From the human T2T-CHM13v2.0 reference genome, Homo sapiens, in the NCBI RefSeq assembly GCF_009914755.1, contig NC_060927.1: a stretch of DNA of 64,000 nt, one strand, 5' to 3'. Position numbers and translations under genes: made by a program. Position 1 is the first letter of the stretch. Each line of letters starts with the position of its first letter. Under the pieces are notes generated by a model. It was not told where the DNA came from. It did not search any database and worked only from the letters and a program-made list of their open reading frames with translations. This document shows, in pieces, positions 8,063-13,829 of the stretch.

Positions 8063-9571
8063 CACTTTTATTAATTTTATGGCAAAAATTATATGATGGT
8101 GGAGATACTTATGTTTGTCGCCAAACCAAACAGTATTTTTATCCCCTCTTCAGCTTCTTAGCTAAGTATCTTGTCTGATATCTTGCCGTTCTTACTTTCT
8201 TTTTGTGTGGTTGTTCTTATCCTGCTTGTCACATCTCTTAGAACTCCATGTTATTCTGCTGTGCTTTCATCTCTCTCTGGTATGGCTTCACCTTTTGCAC
8301 AGTTTCTTCTTTTGGTAAAATGGTATTTTCCAACGTACTTCCTTTGTTTTCTCTTTGCATCCGACTTCTGTAGCTTTTCCATGTTGATCCAGGCATGGTT
8401 TTTCCTCTTTATCCACTAAAGGACTGTAAACTTTTTTTATTTGTTATTATCTATGGAGTTTTTCTCTGTGATGCCGGACAAACAAATCTTTTCATGTGTC
8501 CAGCAAGGATTGTTCTAAATCTCAAATGTAATAGATCCAGATGTACTACTACCTCTTTATCTTCTGCTTTCTCACCTGGATTTTCCTGAAGGGATTATCA
8601 GCACTTTTCTCCCCATCTTTCCCCAAAGACGTGTTCTCTGCTATATTAGGACAAATAATTAGACCCTTGCATTTTAGTAATGACAGGGATCTTATTTTGG
8701 CTTCCAAACCTCAAGCATATTCTTTCTTCATGGACTATTACATCTTTCTACTCGATTTTTTTCTCACAGGCATCACTGTGGTATCCTCTATGTGTGTCAC
8801 TTTTTGTGAGTAATGATCACCTGTTTTCTTACTATCCTTGCTCACAGACATTCTATTTGTTGTACTAGTTAAAAGATCATATCCTCTATCTTTGTAGGAA
8901 AGACCTCATTTGAGTCACTGGACCTCAAAGGTAACTTGATTTACAATTGATTGCTCTATCTTTTATAACATTCTTACGGGTTTTTTGCATGGGCTCCTCT
9001 TAAACTTCCTCTGCATATGGTATCTCTTTTACTGGGTAGACTAGAAAATATCTCTACCTTTACATTTCTTTTATTCCTGCTTGCAGATATAATCTTGAAG
9101 TTATGCCTCGAATCCCCACTGTATTAGGACCTTATCTGAAGAACTATCAATAGTTTTATTTTCTGCCTCTTTGTTGCCTAAGTTAGTTTCATCAGACAGA
9201 GGATTAGAACCTTCCAGATTACTCCTGTTTCATTTTGGTTTGTGTGAAGTTTTTCTTCTGTATTGACCAAAGATACCACCGGATAAAAATTAATTTTGAT
9301 TATTTTTCTAAGTCTTAAAAATATCTTCTTTCCATTTGTAGATTTAAATTTTTATTGCAAATTCTTCATTAGTTTGTCATTCTTTTCCATGTGTATAATC
9401 CCTGTTGAACTAGCCAAACCATCAGATTCCTGAAGATTTATACCAGTTTTACGTTCTCCCATCTCACTAACCCCCTCCGCACCCCCCCACCCCCCACTAT
9501 GTTACACTCACTGTCTTTTGTTTCATAGCTCCATGTTCTGAGTTTTTCTCTTAGAAACTCTTCACAATATT

Positions 9572-9867
9572 CTTTTTTTGTTTTTTGAAACAGAATCTCG
9601 CTCTGTTGCCCAGGCTGGAGTGCAGTGGCACTATCTCGGCTCACTGCAACCTCCGCCTCCCGAGCTCAAGTGATTCTCCTGCCTCAGCCTCCTGAGTAGC
9701 TGGGACTACAAGCATGCACCACCACACCTGGCTAATATTTGTATTTTTAGTAGAGATGGGGTTTTACCATGCTGGCCAGGCCGGTCTTGAACTCCTTACC
9801 TCAAGTGATCTGCCCGCCATGGCCTCCCAAGGTGCTGGGATTACAGGCGTGAGCCACCACGCCTGGC
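9572..9867 (-). mobile_element. Alu (AluS-like)
   Basis: Reverse Alu; target-site duplication TCTTCACAATATTCTTTT on both sides. Confidence 0.95.
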
Positions 9868-10016
9868 ATCTTCACAATATTCTTTTAAACTTTATTTACT
9901 TGAATCTTTTCTGTTGATGTAAGCAACTGAGACTCTTGCAGTTTTTATCAGTTCTGTATTTGGGTCTAGGATGTGGGGACATTCTCTGACTCAGCGTTTT
10001 TGAAAATTAAGCTTAT

Positions 10017-10301
10017 GGCCAGGCACAGTGGTGCACGCCTGTAATCCAAGCACTTTGGGAGGTTGAGGCAGATGTATCACCTGAAGTCAGGAGTTCAAGA
10101 CCAGCCTGACCAATATGGTGAAACCCTGTCTCTACTAAAAATATGGGCATGGTGGTGGTTGCCTGTAATCCCAGCTACTCGAGAGGCTGAGGCTGGAGAA
10201 TCACTTGAACCCAGGAGGTGGAGGTTGCAGTGAGTGGAGTTTGCACCATTGCATTCCAGCCTGTGTGACAGAGCAAGACTCTGTCTCAAAAAAAATAAAA
10301 A
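10017..10301 (+). mobile_element. Alu (AluS-like)
   Basis: Alu body and A tail; TSD AAGCTTAT. Confidence 0.95.
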
Positions 10302-10730
10302 AGCTTATATTCCTTTATATTAATTTCTCTTTGCACATATCTGTTTGGCTAGGCAAAGGTTTTAGATTCTTGAAAATCTTTATTTTTTAGGGTAGATCTG
10401 GTTCTTTGACTAGCTCAATCTTGCATGTTCTTTGGCCATGTCTCCAGTTTCAGAAGCATTAGTTTTAGATTCATATTAACAAGGATTACAAAAGAAGTTT
10501 TCTTGACAGATCTCCTGGTCGATTCTTATTTTTGTTCATTGGATCAAACATTTCTTCAAATCCATTATATACTTCCAAACGATGTTTTCGTTTGGGTTCT
10601 GTCATAAGTGTTTTCATTCCAATAAGTCTTCAACTGCACTGTTCTTTTTTCTTGATGGTTTCAATAAGTTACTGATAACTCTTGCTTGCGTCAATGTTTT
10701 CTTTTGGTGTTTTAAAAAGTTCCATATGAT

Positions 10731-11235
10731 TGTAATCATAATTGGTTCATCGCCTGATGCACAAGGGAGTTAATATGCAGAGACACCTGGTTGCAGCAGA
10801 GAAAGAGGTTTAATCATAGGGCCACCAAACAGAAGAGGAGATGAGAGAAAACCTCAAATCTGTCTCCCTGAGGATTTTGGTTTTGGAGTGGGCCAAAGTG
10901 TTGAGCTCGTTGATTGGTCAGAGTACAAAGGTGTGGTCATGGGGCAGCATCAGTATTCTTATGCTCATTTGGGTCCTCTGTGGTGGTCTTCAAACTGGTT
11001 GTCTCAGCTGTACTTCTGGAATTTAGGATCTGCTGAAGCAATTCTTAAACAAGAGTTTTATCATTTAAAGATCAGAAGTCCTATTTATGGAAAGAATGGG
11101 GATGCAACTGGTTAGTATCTAGTGCCACCCTGACTTTTGATTACAAGGAAGTGGGCCAAAGTACAGCCTGATTAATGCTTAATTGTAGCTGTATATCTGT
11201 CCAGAATTCTTGTTAACGCTGTAAGGAGGGCTTCA
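10731..11235 (-). mobile_element. Solo ERV1-class LTR (MER4-group like; subfamily uncertain)
   Basis: TG...CA bounded ~500 bp; GTTGCAGCAGAGAAAGAGGTTTAAT...GAAAACCTCAAATCTGTCTCCCTGAGG typical of reverse ERV1 LTRs. Confidence 0.65.
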
Positions 11236-11383
11236 TGGTCAGTTGACTAACCTTAAAAAAAGTTTTGTATGGTCTTCCACATCTTCTTTTGATTGAAAAC
11301 TTGTACAATCAAATTTGAACTCTAAATAAAATCTCTGTATGTTCTATATATTTTTTTCTAGTGCTTGGCTTTCTTGAGTAGTA

Positions 11384-11673: not shown

Positions 11674-11951
11674 ATTGAGTAGTATTTTTCATATTTTTTA
11701 TTATAGGTGTTTTAGCCAACTGGTTTTCTAGTTCTGTCTAATATAGTTGAATGCGTACTAAGGGTTTCCTATGAGCAAGCTTTTTAGAATTTGGAGTTTC
11801 TAAGATTCTATAAGCATTGGAATGTCTGCCAGATCTTCTACTAGATATACCTTAGAAATTTTCAAAAGTGTCTTGATGCCTGTAAAATTTTCTACCGATT
11901 CACATCTCCACAAAAGAGTTGTCATGAGGTTCTTGACACTTGTCAAATCTT

Positions 11952-12256
11952 GGTCAGGTGCAGTGGCTCACATCTGTGATACCAGCACTTTTGGAGGCCA
12001 AGGCAGGTGGTTCGAGACCTGGCCTTGAGGCCAGGCATTCAAGACCAGCCTGGGCAACATGGTGAAACCCCATCTCTACTAAAAATACAAAAATTAGCCA
12101 GTGTAATGGTGCACACCTGTAATCCCAGGTACTCAGGAGGATGAGGCATGAGAATCTCTCGAACCCAGAAAGCGGAGGTTACAGTGAACCAAGACAGCAC
12201 CAGTGCACTCCAGCCTGAGCGACAAAGTGAGACTGTCTCAAGAAAGAAAAAAAAAA
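11952..12256 (+). mobile_element. Alu (diverged, AluJ/S)
   Basis: Alu body and A-rich tail. Confidence 0.92.
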
Positions 12257-12384
12257 TATTCTCCTTGTTTTCTTTTTTTTTTCTAGTGGAAACAGAATCC
12301 AACTGGGCTTTATTTTACTTTTATTCCTTTTACAAATATTTCTTGAGAACATACTAAGTTCAAGTCACCGTTTTCATCTTTTTC

Positions 12385-12572
12385 ATTTTTTTACATTTTA
12401 GTTGACATATAATAATTGTACATATTTATGAGATACATAGTGATGTTATGATACCTATAATGTGTGGTGACCAGACCAGGGTAATTAGCAGATCATCATC
12501 TCAAACATTTATCATTTGTTTGTGTTGGGGACATTCAGTATCCTCCTTCTAGCTATTTGAAACTATTTATTT
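12385..12572 (-). mobile_element. L1 (L1MA-like) 3' end fragment
   Basis: TTTTAGTTGACATATAATAATTGTACATATTTATG...CATCATCTCAAACATTTATCATT typical of a reverse L1M 3' end. Confidence 0.7.
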
Positions 12573-12725
12573 CTGTGTGTGTGTGTGTGTGTGTGTGTGT
12601 GTGTGTGTGTGTGTGTGTGTCTTGCTATGTTGCTCAGGCTAGTCTCCAACTCCTTTACTCAAGTGATCCTCCAACCTTGGCCTCCCGAAGTGCTGGGATT
12701 ACAGACGTCAACGACTGCGCCGGCC
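12573..12725 (-). mobile_element. (GT)n microsatellite plus Alu left monomer (FLAM-like)
   Basis: About 24 GT units followed by a reverse Alu monomer. Confidence 0.85.
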
Positions 12726-13829
12726 TTTATTTCTTTAGGAGTTTTGGTCTATTGGTGCCTGTCAGGTCTTCCATGGGTTCAATCTTTTTCACAGAAGTTC
12801 TTAGAAATTTCTTGATTGTTGTAAGAAGTCCAGCTGATTCGCACTGAGCCCTGGGTACTGTCCCAAGTTTCTTGTTGATTGTCCTCTGGGTTGGCAATTG
12901 GCTGTGGAGTTTTCCCAAGGCCCTTGGTTTCTGTTGGGTCTTCCGCCAGTTCTGGCTTTTCTTTAGGTATCCTAAACAATCTCTTGCTCCCTGTGAGGTT
13001 TCACCATTTCCACTTGGCAGATCTGGGGTTCTTGTTGCTTTCACTCTCTAGCTGTGCTGTCTGCTTTGGCATTTTCATAAGCCCTTTGATGCCTGTCAGG
13101 TTTTCTTCCTGACTGCATTTTCCCCAGTCATCCCCAGCAGTCTCCTGGGTTTGTGCTTTGAAGTGTTCCTAAACTTTCTGTTGACATCATCAACATTTAT
13201 TTGTTCCTCTAGTTCTTTCGGTGTTTACAGGAGCTCTCTGATAGCTGCCAGTCTTCTGTGGGTTTTGGTTTTATTTTAAGTGTCCTGGCATTTTCATGAG
13301 AATTCTTAGAGTTTCCGCTGGTTCTGTTTTGTGCTTTGGAGTGCTCATAAGATTTCTATGGGTGTTTCACCACTTAATTTGTTCCTCTGGTTCTTTCAGT
13401 GATTGTGGGTGCTCTCTGATACCTGCCAGGTCTTCCACAGCTTTTGCCTTTTCTTCAGCTCTTTTCATCAGTCTCTTGAGGAATGTTAGAGTTTCTATGG
13501 GTTCCCTATTATGCTTTGCAGTGCTCCTAAGATTTTTATGGCTACCTATTTTAGTAAACATCTGTAATCAGTTGTAATTAGTAATTTCATTAGTGAATTC
13601 CTGAAATTTATAGTTGCTGAGTTTGAACTCTGGCAATTCACTTTGATAAGTTAAATATCATTATTTCTAGCTTGCTCTGATTTAACATTCGGTAGCATTT
13701 ACATTTTAGCCTTTCTTCCAAAAAATAAAATATAGGCATTCATCCAACTTTAGATATAAGCTCAACATTTGCTGTGAGGGTGACACTTTTCATTTCTATC
13801 ATGATGACTATAACAAAAATAACTATAAT

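What the first reader, a model, noticed from the sequence alone, without database searches (positions are those of the whole stretch)
8139..13600. Fossil Ki-67 (MKI67)-like gene on the minus strand between C3orf80 and IFT80
Seen: the non-repeat sequence here is purine-rich on the minus strand and translates into recurring E-D/N-L-T/A-G-x-K/R-x-L-M-x-T-P-K units. Examples: 13540-13370 KRLMKRAEEKAKAVEDLAGIREHPQSLKE; ~13110-13060 EENLTGIKGLMKMPKQ; ~12980-12900 FRIPKEKPELAEDPTETKGLGKTP; ~12830-12740 TIKKFLRTSVKKIEPMEDLTG; ~11950-11820 EDLTSVKNLMTT...ESVENFTGIKTLLKISK...VEDLAD. Known: the Ki-67 repeat core is TPKEKAQALEDLAGFKELFQTP, and human MKI67 is on chr10, not next to IFT80. Inference: after removing ~2 kb of Alu/LTR/L1 insertions, about 3.4 kb (~1100 codons) of a Ki-67 paralog or ancient 5'-truncated retrocopy remains. 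I do not recognise an annotation for it. It may be a unitary pseudogene of a second Ki-67-like chromosome-periphery protein that is still intact in other mammals.
Basis: partly seen in the sequence, partly recalled or inferred. Interest (0 to 1): 0.9.

Follow-up and report, generated by a model that had tools for sequence, protein, structure and literature searches.

The report
Ancient dead retrocopy of Ki-67
This stretch of human chromosome 3 is the decayed, intron-less copy of the back half of an ancient Ki-67 messenger RNA, and it preserves an older build of the protein that sloths still have but human Ki-67 has since lost.

Summary
The minus strand from about 13546 to 7701 holds a single-copy, purine-rich, heavily broken reading frame related to Ki-67. 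Four Alus, an L1-like piece, an old LTR-like repeat and a (CA)n tract interrupt it.

It matches human MKI67 only weakly (Pfam KI67R E 3.5e-5; DNA profile of the 16 human repeats E 5.9e-9). It is collinear with residues 1181-2100 of the sloth protein named "proliferation marker protein Ki-67": 373 of 784 aligned residues identical, frameshift-aware score 972 against about 62 for shuffles. A separate block matches residues about 2355-2416, close to the C-terminus.

It is a processed pseudogene:
- it is continuous across the sites of MKI67 introns 13 and 14;
- no N-terminal exon remains were found in the 64 kb;
- its stop codon and about 120 nt of 3' UTR align with MKI67's;
- AATAAA and an A-rich tail follow.

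It records an older architecture, with irregular ~60-aa repeats and a long Leu/Arg-rich tail. Human MKI67 has since replaced these with 16 × 122-aa repeats and a ~330-aa tail.

The idea of a unitary pseudogene of a second Ki-67-like gene is not. Interest is moderate.

The parts
7701..13546 (-). Whole processed Ki-67 pseudogene, 5'-truncated, including later insertions
   Evidence: Frameshift-aware alignment to sloth Ki-67 runs 13540->8825 and 8348->8177. 3' UTR and tail are. Purine skew has its edges here.
12745..13546 (-). Repeat block 1: about 4.4 decayed units of ~180 nt (60 aa)
   Evidence: Self-blastn: 13541-12924 against 13361-12752, offset 180 nt, 61% identity, E 3e-34. Pfam KI67R hits. 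nhmmer hits.
11962..12744 (.). Insertion cluster: partial Alu plus (CA)n at 12561-12744, L1-like 3' end at 12371-12560, Alu at about 11955-12300
   Evidence: Alu matches. (TG)23.5 at 12574-12620. 12560-12371 is multi-copy, 3182 candidates at 82-89% identity. The sloth alignment resumes across the cluster with only a few residues missing. The name L1 is recalled, not tested.
11703..11961 (-). Repeat block 2 (QDLTSVKNLMTT ... ESVENFTGIKTLLKISK ... VEDLAD)
   Evidence: nhmmer hit at 11901-11822, E 7.9e-3. Aligned to sloth 'EELTGVRNLMRTPKQGWGSTENLMSRKRFMKTP'.
11371..11702 (.). Alu insertion
   Evidence: blastn to Alus near MKI67. Direct repeat AAAATACTACTCAA on both sides, read.
11237..11370 (-). 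Fossil piece (… KEDVEDHTKLF)
   Evidence: Single copy (query 1-134). Aligned to sloth.
10729..11236 (.). Old interspersed repeat of ~510 bp, LTR-like
   Evidence: 460 candidates in the genome. 40 were scored, giving 43 further matches at 70-80% identity to query 134-661. The class was not determined because no RepeatMasker was available.
10313..10728 (-). End of the repeat region and start of the tail, with the conserved GFEEMF anchor at 10546-10563
   Evidence: tblastn: sloth 1660-1761 at E 1.3e-7 and P0010 812-912. Alignment.
10003..10312 (.). Alu insertion
   Evidence: blastn. Short direct repeat ATAAGC read.
9886..10002 (-). Piece holding the site of MKI67 intron 13 (between 9986 and 9985), continuous here
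   Evidence: Nucleotide alignment of 9987-9895 to the last 2 nt of exon 13 plus the first 93 nt of exon 14. The sloth 'PSRGMSLRSRHRHKTDT' aligns without any insert.
9570..9885 (.). Alu insertion with one copy of its target-site duplication AAGAATATTGTGAAGA
   Evidence: blastn. Duplication read. Sloth residue 1851 is matched on both sides of the Alu.
8162..9569 (-). Long Leu/Arg-rich C-terminal tail that human MKI67 mostly lacks; stop-equivalent TAG at 8162-8164
   Evidence: tblastn: sloth 1875-2038 against 9459-9031, E 4e-18. Frameshift-aware alignments. The TAG aligns to the TGA of MKI67. Single copy in the genome.
8064..8161 (-). 3' UTR remnant with AATAAA at 8067-8072
   Evidence: Two collinear blocks align to the first ~120 nt of the MKI67 3' UTR. 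Sequence read.
7741..8063 (.). Alu inserted 4 nt after the AATAAA, flanked by AAAAGTG
   Evidence: blastn. Sequence read. Anchors located.
7701..7740 (-). Last 8 nt of the 3' UTR (7733-7740), then an A-rich tail of 32 nt with 22 A (7701-7732)
   Evidence: Read. At this point the MKI67 3' UTR continues with non-A-rich sequence.

Best explanation
This is a processed pseudogene. An L1-type reverse transcription copied the 3' 3.8 kb or so of an ancestral Ki-67 (MKI67) mRNA into this site, probably near or before the radiation of placental mammals. The mRNA was polyadenylated about 125 nt after its stop codon. The copy began inside the repeat exon, so it lacked the FHA and PP1-binding parts and was probably dead on arrival. 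It has since drifted neutrally and been invaded by four Alus within the copy (a fifth sits in the 3' UTR), an L1-like fragment, an LTR-like repeat and a microsatellite. It has no present function.

Its value is as a record. It shows that the human lineage once made a Ki-67 with irregular ~60-aa repeats and a ~900-aa tail after the repeat units, of which ~600 aa follow the intron-13 site and are rich in Leu/Arg. This is the build still seen in a sloth Ki-67.

Shown here: homology, collinearity, absence of introns at two sites, absence of upstream exons, and the 3' UTR with its tail. Inferred: the L1 mechanism, the age, and that the parent was the chr10 gene lineage.
For: Homology and extent:
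- Sloth Ki-67 (P0102, named) residues 1181-2100 align to 13540->8825 after the insertions are removed. The score is 972, with 373 of 784 aligned residues identical, 10 stops and 27 frameshifts.
- Controls: 20 shuffles gave mean 62 and maximum 76, the reversed protein 65, and the opposite strand 37.
- P0010 scored 892, P0013 523, P0001 460 and P0014 348. Human MKI67 exons 13-15 scored only 155.

No introns:
- The frame is continuous at 9986/9985, where MKI67 has its 875-bp intron 13.
- It is also continuous near 8210, where MKI67 has its ~2-kb intron 14.

5' truncation:
- All 36 tblastn HSPs of P0102, P0010 and P0013 lie on the minus strand between 13567 and 8825.
- None involves P0102 residues 1-947.

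3' end:
- The TAG at 8162-8164 aligns to the stop codon of MKI67.
- Block 8201-8122 aligns to C10:128997787-128997701, 55 of 87 columns identical. 14 of 500 shuffles reached that score.
- The next block is the best match in the remaining 2.5 kb of UTR and lies at the collinear place, 128997682-128997647. 2 of 300 shuffles reached that score.
- AATAAA at 8067-8072 is followed, 12 nt later once the Alu is removed, by a 32-nt tract with 22 A.

Other:
- The sequence is single copy in the genome.
- In the tree the fossil sits inside the clade of P0013, P0010, P0102 and P0057 with support 95/94. Its own branch is 0.53 changes per site.
Against: - I could not see the exon structure of any long-tailed Ki-67 gene. 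That the parent had introns at these two sites is inferred from human MKI67 alone.
- The two 3' UTR blocks are individually modest (p about 0.03 and 0.007 by mononucleotide shuffles), and an A-rich tract in AT-rich DNA is weak evidence.
- No target-site duplication was sought or found.
- The grouping of the fossil with the sloth-type proteins rather than P0013 has weak support (79/63). The fossil's translation used for the tree was guided by the sloth sequence, which biases it toward the sloth.
- No other mammalian genome was available, so neither the age nor the presence of the copy in other orders could be tested directly.
Confidence: 0.85

Rival explanations
1. It is a unitary pseudogene of a true second Ki-67 gene, a DNA-level paralogue that once sat beside IFT80. 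That gene would be the one retained in sloths and in the source of P0013, while boreoeutherian MKI67 on chr10 would be the other paralogue.
For: - The fossil is far closer to the long-tailed proteins than to human MKI67: 972 against 155.
- 18 proteins carry at least 3 human-type motifs. Only 1 of them matched sloth tail part A (41 aa) and only 2 matched tail part B (128 and 86 aa). The two builds are therefore sharply distinct.
- I could not check the chromosomal place of the sloth gene.
Against: - There is no intron at either of the two intron sites that fall inside the fossil.
- No match to sloth residues 1-947 was found anywhere in 64 kb, including the 20 kb up to the end of IFT80.
- tblastx with the whole human gene gave only 10-38-aa scraps upstream, chained by sum statistics.
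- The copy ends in AATAAA plus an A-rich tract.
- The stop codon and proximal 3' UTR align to those of chr10 MKI67.
- The human tail still holds the start and end of the sloth tail in the same order, as expected if one gene was remodelled by internal deletions.
Confidence: 0.07
2. It was a retrogene that stayed functional for a time, encoding a truncated protein of repeats plus chromatin-binding tail, before dying. It would then not have been dead on arrival.
For: - P0093 (99 aa) keeps an open frame over units A and B, and several other short ORF-like proteins resemble unit A.
- The C-terminal Leu/Arg-rich region of Ki-67 can bind chromatin on its own. This is recalled knowledge, not tested here.
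Against: - There are 10 stops and 27 frameshifts in 784 codons.
- The fossil's branch of 0.53 changes per site is the longest among the mammal rows built from whole gene models. P0057, a patchy model, is longer.
- No start codon or promoter was looked for or seen.
- The short ORFs carry no names, and only P0004 (90% identical) is clearly the same locus.
Confidence: 0.05
3. It is a chance resemblance, or an old non-coding tandem repeat or transposon fragment that merely looks like Ki-67.
For: - Tandem Repeats Finder does not call an array here.
- The Pfam hits are under the curated cut-off.
- The sense strand is A-rich, as in L1.
Against: - The score is 972 against a shuffle maximum of 76.
- Collinearity extends over about 900 residues of non-repetitive tail.
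- The sequence is single copy.
- Pfam found no transposon domain in 16 tail ORFs.
Confidence: 0.01

Closest known systems
MKI67P1-type processed pseudogene on chrX (name recalled; place C23:45968273-45969717 in this assembly)
   Same: Both are intron-less partial copies of MKI67 mRNA on another chromosome. In the chrX copy the end of exon 13 and exon 14 are directly joined.
   Different: The chrX copy is young, 91-92% identical to MKI67, and passes the Pfam KI67R cut-off. The chr3 copy is about 57-64% identical at best in the repeats, was not picked up by the genome-wide Pfam scan, and copies an older build of the gene.
Human MKI67 (chr10, exons 13-15)
   Same: They share the repeat core (E/D-D-L-x-G-x-K-x-L), the 'IMKRSLRTSAKRIEPAEELN' segment, the start of exon 14, the last ~20 codons, the stop position and the proximal 3' UTR.
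   Different: Human MKI67 has 16 homogenised 122-aa repeats and a 328-aa tail. The fossil has irregular ~60-aa units and about 800 further tail codons. Against these the human tail shows no detectable match: score 37 against a shuffle mean of 41, with 90 of 100 shuffles at or above the observed score.
Sloth Ki-67 (P0102, 'proliferation marker protein Ki-67 [Choloepus didactylus]') and its relatives P0010, P0057 and P0013
   Same: The fossil is collinear with them unit by unit from the mid-repeat region toward the C-terminus. Identity is 47.6% to P0102, 44.8% to P0010 and 41.5% to P0013.
   Different: These are intact proteins. P0102 and P0013 have FHA and PP1-binding domains. The fossil lacks everything before sloth residue about 1181 and is riddled with stops and frameshifts.

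Membership tests
Ki-67 family (Pfam KI67R, PF08065) | A match to the KI67R repeat profile above the gathering score of 32.4 bits | tested here: not met
   The best single ORF scored 24.8 bits (E 3.5e-5); two more scored 18.4 and 17.7 bits. The genome-wide scan did not list chr3. A broken frame is expected to fall short in this way. Intact relatives pass: P0102 113 bits, P0010 142 bits.
Ki-67 family | Significant collinear similarity to bona fide Ki-67 proteins outside the repeats | tested here: met
   Score 972 against shuffles of at most 76. tblastn E 4e-18 on the non-repeat tail. The partner is named Ki-67 by its source.
Ki-67 family | N-terminal FHA domain and PP1-binding motif | tested here: not met
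   No tblastn match to sloth residues 1-947 in the window. This fits a 5'-truncated copy, so the fossil is a fragment of a family member and not a whole gene.
Processed pseudogene (retrocopy) | Lacks the parent's introns | tested here: met
   Continuous across the sites of MKI67 introns 13 and 14. That the ancestral parent had these introns is inferred from human MKI67.
Processed pseudogene (retrocopy) | Poly(A) signal and A-rich tail at the 3' end | tested here: met
   AATAAA at 8067-8072. After removal of the Alu with its AAAAGTG duplication, a 32-nt tract with 22 A starts 12 nt later. This is weak on its own.
Processed pseudogene (retrocopy) | Flanking target-site duplications | not tested
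   At this age a 7-20-bp duplication would be about 60% alike and not separable from chance.
Processed pseudogene (retrocopy) | Lies away from the parent gene and has a disabled frame | tested here: met
   chr3 against chr10. 10 stops and 27 frameshifts in 784 aligned codons.
Unitary pseudogene or dead paralogue | Keeps exon-intron structure and remains of all exons in place | tested here: not met
   No introns at two sites and no upstream exon remains.
Unitary pseudogene or dead paralogue | An intact orthologue at the syntenic place in other species | not testable with these tools
   No other mammalian genome or gene map is held. The protein libraries give no genomic context.

The most novel reading that the evidence does not exclude
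The fossil is a dated snapshot showing that the textbook human Ki-67 build, 16 × 122-aa 'Ki-67 repeats' and a short LR tail, is a late innovation, perhaps boreoeutherian. On this reading it was made after this retrocopy by amplifying one double unit and deleting about 600-700 residues of Leu/Arg-rich tail. A unit of that kind is present in sloth at residues 1063-1157. Sloths, and perhaps afrotherians and marsupials, would still carry the ancestral build. If so, most of what is called the Ki-67 repeat region and much of the chromatin-binding tail are evolutionarily replaceable, and the remodelling can be dated from within the human genome.
Probability: 0.5. Interest if true: 0.55.

Novelty: new member of a known kind. 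Interest (0 to 1): 0.4.

Why it matters
Ki-67 is one of the most used markers in pathology, and the reason for its highly variable repeat region is described as an open question in the review PMC8354752 (passages seen).

This fossil is ordinary in kind, a dead retrocopy. It is unusual in what it preserves: the back half of a Ki-67 mRNA from a distant ancestor of humans, with a different repeat unit and a tail several hundred residues longer.

It gives direct evidence from within the genome that the human-type repeat array and short tail are derived. It also offers a way to date that change, by finding which mammals share the copy.

It shows as well that pseudogene finders seeded only with a species' own proteins can miss old copies of fast-evolving genes. 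RefSeq lists nothing here, and the genome-wide Pfam scan missed it.

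Tried and rejected
- Human MKI67 tail (328 aa) against the fossil tail by frameshift-aware alignment: score 37 against a shuffle mean of 41, with 90 of 100 shuffles at or above it. This at first suggested that 10560-8139 was not part of the fossil. The long-tailed proteins overturned that.
- Pfam on 16 tail ORFs: 0 hits, so there is no sign of L1 or other transposon proteins.
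- tblastx of window 1-36000 against the whole MKI67 gene: the upstream 'hits' are 10-38-aa scraps tied together by sum statistics. I rejected them as evidence for N-terminal exons.
- Tandem Repeats Finder: no array called, because the units are too decayed. Self-blastn did find the 180-nt period.
- The search for homologous proteins with the 66-aa ORF: 'longer' found nothing and 'near' found only P0004, which has no name.
- The short ORF-like proteins P0044, P0075, P0085, P0093 and P0094 could be the same fossil in other mammals. Their scores against the fossil and against functional Ki-67 proteins are too close to decide. I make no claim about which species they come from.
- Literature searches for 'MKI67 pseudogene', 'Ki-67'+'pseudogene'+'chromosome 3', 'MKI67P' and 'Ki-67'+'retrocopy': listings only, and none concerns this locus.
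- Structure prediction, complex prediction and fold searches were not used, since a disordered, broken frame gives them nothing to work on.

Full report
**Observation.** The minus strand of 8000-13800 was read and its stop-to-stop ORFs listed. The purine bias is real. The six non-insertion pieces between 8139 and 13560 have 0.54-0.64 purine on the minus strand, and the three largest have 0.60-0.635. The window mean is 0.497 (sd 0.062), and the bias falls off sharply near 8100 and 13560.

**Is it Ki-67-like beyond chance?**
- Pfam found KI67R in 3 of 10 minus-strand ORFs, at E 3.5e-5 (24.8 bits), 3.2e-3 and 5.5e-3. All are under the 32.4-bit cut-off.
- A scan of the window's own genome with PF08065 found the 16 repeats of MKI67 on contig 10 in one 2318-aa open frame, plus a copy on contig 23. 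It did not list chr3.
- I cut the 16 human repeats out of the fetched loci and aligned them. I then searched the whole 64 kb on both strands with a DNA profile. Six of the 7 hits at E<=10 lie on the minus strand between 13530 and 11822. The best is E 5.9e-9, and all match the second half of the human repeat.
- Plain blastn to MKI67 gives only 57-64% identity in 12730-13550.
- tblastn with the human exon 13-15 protein gives 37 HSPs at E<=10. Thirty of them are stacked on 13549-12700 (best E 4.9e-7) and none lies in 10400-8100.

**Own structure.**
- Self-comparison shows 13541-12924 aligning to 13361-12752 at an offset of 180 nt, with 61% identity and E 3e-34. The unit here is therefore about 60 aa, not 122. 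Tandem Repeats Finder does not call it.
- The stretches 12740-13560 and 8100-9560 are single copy in the genome.
- The interruptions are later insertions:
  - Alus at about 7741-8063, 9570-9885, 10003-10312, 11371-11702 and 11955-12300, with flanking duplications read;
  - a ~510-bp old repeat at 10729-11236, with 460 candidates in the genome, 40 of them scored, at 70-80% identity;
  - a very common element at 12371-12560, with 3182 candidates at 82-89% identity, which I recall as an L1 3' end;
  - (TG)23.5 at 12574-12620.

**The key relatives.**
- The 66-aa ORF 13367-13567 was scored against 1.84 billion representative proteins. It found 101 at E<=1e-3 and 40 at E<=1e-10.
- The top hits are 2000-3600-aa proteins with an FHA head and many matching stretches. 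Examples are P0001 and P0002, whose repeats are 20-aa units of the form 'KEKGEPVEDLTGIKRLMRTP'.
- Two others, P0010 and P0013, have ~60-aa units and a very long tail.
- A word-based search with the tail of P0010 found P0102, which its source names 'proliferation marker protein Ki-67 [Choloepus didactylus]'. It is 67% identical over the whole tail.
- Pfam finds FHA, PP1_bind and KI67R in P0102, and FHA and PP1_bind but no KI67R in P0013.

**Extent and quality of the match.**
- tblastn of P0102, P0010 and P0013 against the window gave 36 HSPs. All are on the minus strand between 13567 and 8825 and are collinear. One example is sloth 1875-2038 against 9459-9031 at E 4e-18. Sloth residue 1851 is matched on both sides of the Alu at 9570-9885.
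- No HSP involves sloth residues 1-947.
- A frameshift-aware local alignment, written for this purpose, of the sloth protein against the fossil with insertions left out runs from residue 1181 at 13540 to residue 2100 at 8825. The score is 972, with 373 of 784 aligned residues identical, 513 positive, 10 stops and 27 frameshifts. A further block, 8348-8177, matches sloth residues about 2355-2416 (24 of 52 identical).
- Controls: 20 shuffles of the sloth sequence gave mean 62, sd 6 and maximum 76. The reversed protein scored 65 and the opposite strand 37.
- Human MKI67 exons 13-15 score only 155 under the same scheme. Other partners scored as follows: P0010 892 (44.8% identity), P0013 523 (41.5%), P0001 460 (32.7%) and P0014 348 (31.1%).
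- Before these relatives were found, the human 328-aa tail had shown nothing against 10560-8086: score 37 against a shuffle mean of 41, with 90 of 100 shuffles at or above it. Pfam had also found nothing in 16 tail ORFs.

**Retrocopy or dead gene in place?** The exon ends of MKI67 were fixed from the young chrX copy, which joins 129001131 directly to 129000256, and from the open frames.
- *Intron 13.* In the fossil the sloth sequence '…LHLQEKPSR|GMSLRSRHRHKTDT' aligns without any insert. At DNA level 9987-9895 aligns to the last 2 nt of exon 13 plus the first 93 nt of exon 14. MKI67 has an 875-bp intron exactly there. The nucleotide match alone was marginal: score 20 against a maximum of 19 in 30 shuffles.
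- *Intron 14.* The last ~20 codons likewise follow directly near 8210, where MKI67 has a ~2-kb intron.
- *Upstream exons.* tblastx with the whole 40-kb MKI67 region gives only 10-38-aa scraps upstream, linked by sum statistics.
- *3' end.*
  - TAG at 8162-8164 aligns with the MKI67 stop.
  - 8201-8122 aligns to C10:128997787-128997701, with 55 of 87 columns identical. 14 of 500 shuffles reach that score.
  - The next piece finds its best match in the remaining 2.5 kb of UTR at the collinear place, 128997682-128997647. 2 of 300 shuffles reach that score.
  - AATAAA sits at 8067-8072.
  - An Alu flanked by AAAAGTG was inserted 4 nt later. Once it is removed, a 32-nt tract with 22 A begins 12 nt after the signal. 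MKI67 continues there with ordinary sequence.

Together these are the marks of a 5'-truncated processed pseudogene made from an mRNA polyadenylated at a proximal site.

**Which Ki-67?**
- In a maximum-likelihood tree of the non-repeat tail (16 rows, 433 columns) the fossil falls inside the clade of P0013, P0010, P0102 and P0057 with support 95/94. It joins the sloth-type group with only 79/63. Its own branch is 0.53 changes per site.
- The fossil's translation was guided by the sloth protein, which favours that placement.
- Human MKI67 keeps the beginning of the sloth tail (about 1740-1860) and its end (about 2300-2419), in order, but not the roughly 440 residues between.
- 18 proteins in the hit list carry at least 3 human-type motifs. 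Only P0030 matched sloth tail part A (41 aa), and only P0006 and P0011 matched part B (128 and 86 aa).
- The sloth protein does contain a near full-length KI67R unit, at residues 1063-1157 matching profile positions 2-103 of 112. The 122-aa unit is therefore not wholly new.
- I infer that the parent of the fossil was the MKI67 lineage before its repeat array was rebuilt and its tail shortened. This is inference, because the chromosomal place of the sloth gene could not be checked.

**Age (inference only).**
- The branch of 0.53 amino-acid changes per site, the 57-64% DNA identity to MKI67, and the presence inside the fossil of a repeat whose copies are only 70-80% alike all point to an origin near or before the placental radiation.
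- One short protein, P0004 (71 aa, 90% identical, no name), is clearly the same locus in a close relative. Five others (47-62% identical) may be the same locus in more distant mammals, but they cannot be told from pieces of functional Ki-67.

**Literature.**
- Of the review PMC8354752 I saw passages only. It says that repeat size and number vary greatly, that chicken repeats are about 60 aa, and that the repeat region always lies in one exon. The words 'pseudogene' and 'paralog' do not occur in it.
- Of PMC7806701 I saw one passage. It lists the Chmadrin domain family as absent from afrotherian proteomes. I take this to be Pfam KI67R. That identification is mine, and it is only a hint that afrotherian Ki-67 is not of the human type.
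- Four searches for a Ki-67 pseudogene or retrocopy at this place found nothing relevant (listings only).
- GENCODE and pseudogene.org could not be consulted.

**Verdict.** It is an ordinary kind of object, a processed pseudogene with no present function. Its content is of moderate interest, because it preserves an ancestral Ki-67 architecture inside the human genome.

Noticed in passing
G000 contig 23 (chrX) 45968273-45969717; locus L013: A young processed copy of the MKI67 3' part. It is 91-92% identical, has exon 13 and exon 14 joined directly, and is cut off by an Alu. It holds two Pfam KI67R matches above the cut-off inside a 372-aa open frame. It is probably the known MKI67P1 (name recalled).
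   Followed up: partly
window 10729-11236: A ~510-bp old interspersed repeat sits inside the fossil. It has 460 candidate copies in the genome, and the scored ones are 70-80% identical. Its family name would give a minimum age for the fossil.
   Followed up: partly
P0102 residues 1063-1157 and P0010 residues 220-318: The long-tailed Ki-67 proteins each contain a near full-length match to the 112-position KI67R profile, upstream of the part copied into the fossil. This may be the seed of the human-type 122-aa array.
   Followed up: no
P0013 residues about 2100-2330: This protein has its own recent tandem expansion in the tail, about five ~40-aa units of the type 'EAALRQETRMKTRHQRM.LGEEMQHSHSLPAPCEEVSTDK'. 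It has no Pfam KI67R match and instead a spurious-looking LRV_2 hit.
   Followed up: no
window 12574-12620: A perfect (TG)23.5 microsatellite lies next to a partial Alu, inside the insertion cluster that splits the repeat region of the fossil.
   Followed up: no
window 14500-34000 against MKI67: tblastx sum statistics gave E 1.2e-8 to a chain of 10-38-aa scraps spread over 20 kb. One of them lies inside the IFT80 3' exon. This shows how collinear chaining can mimic decayed exons.
   Followed up: partly
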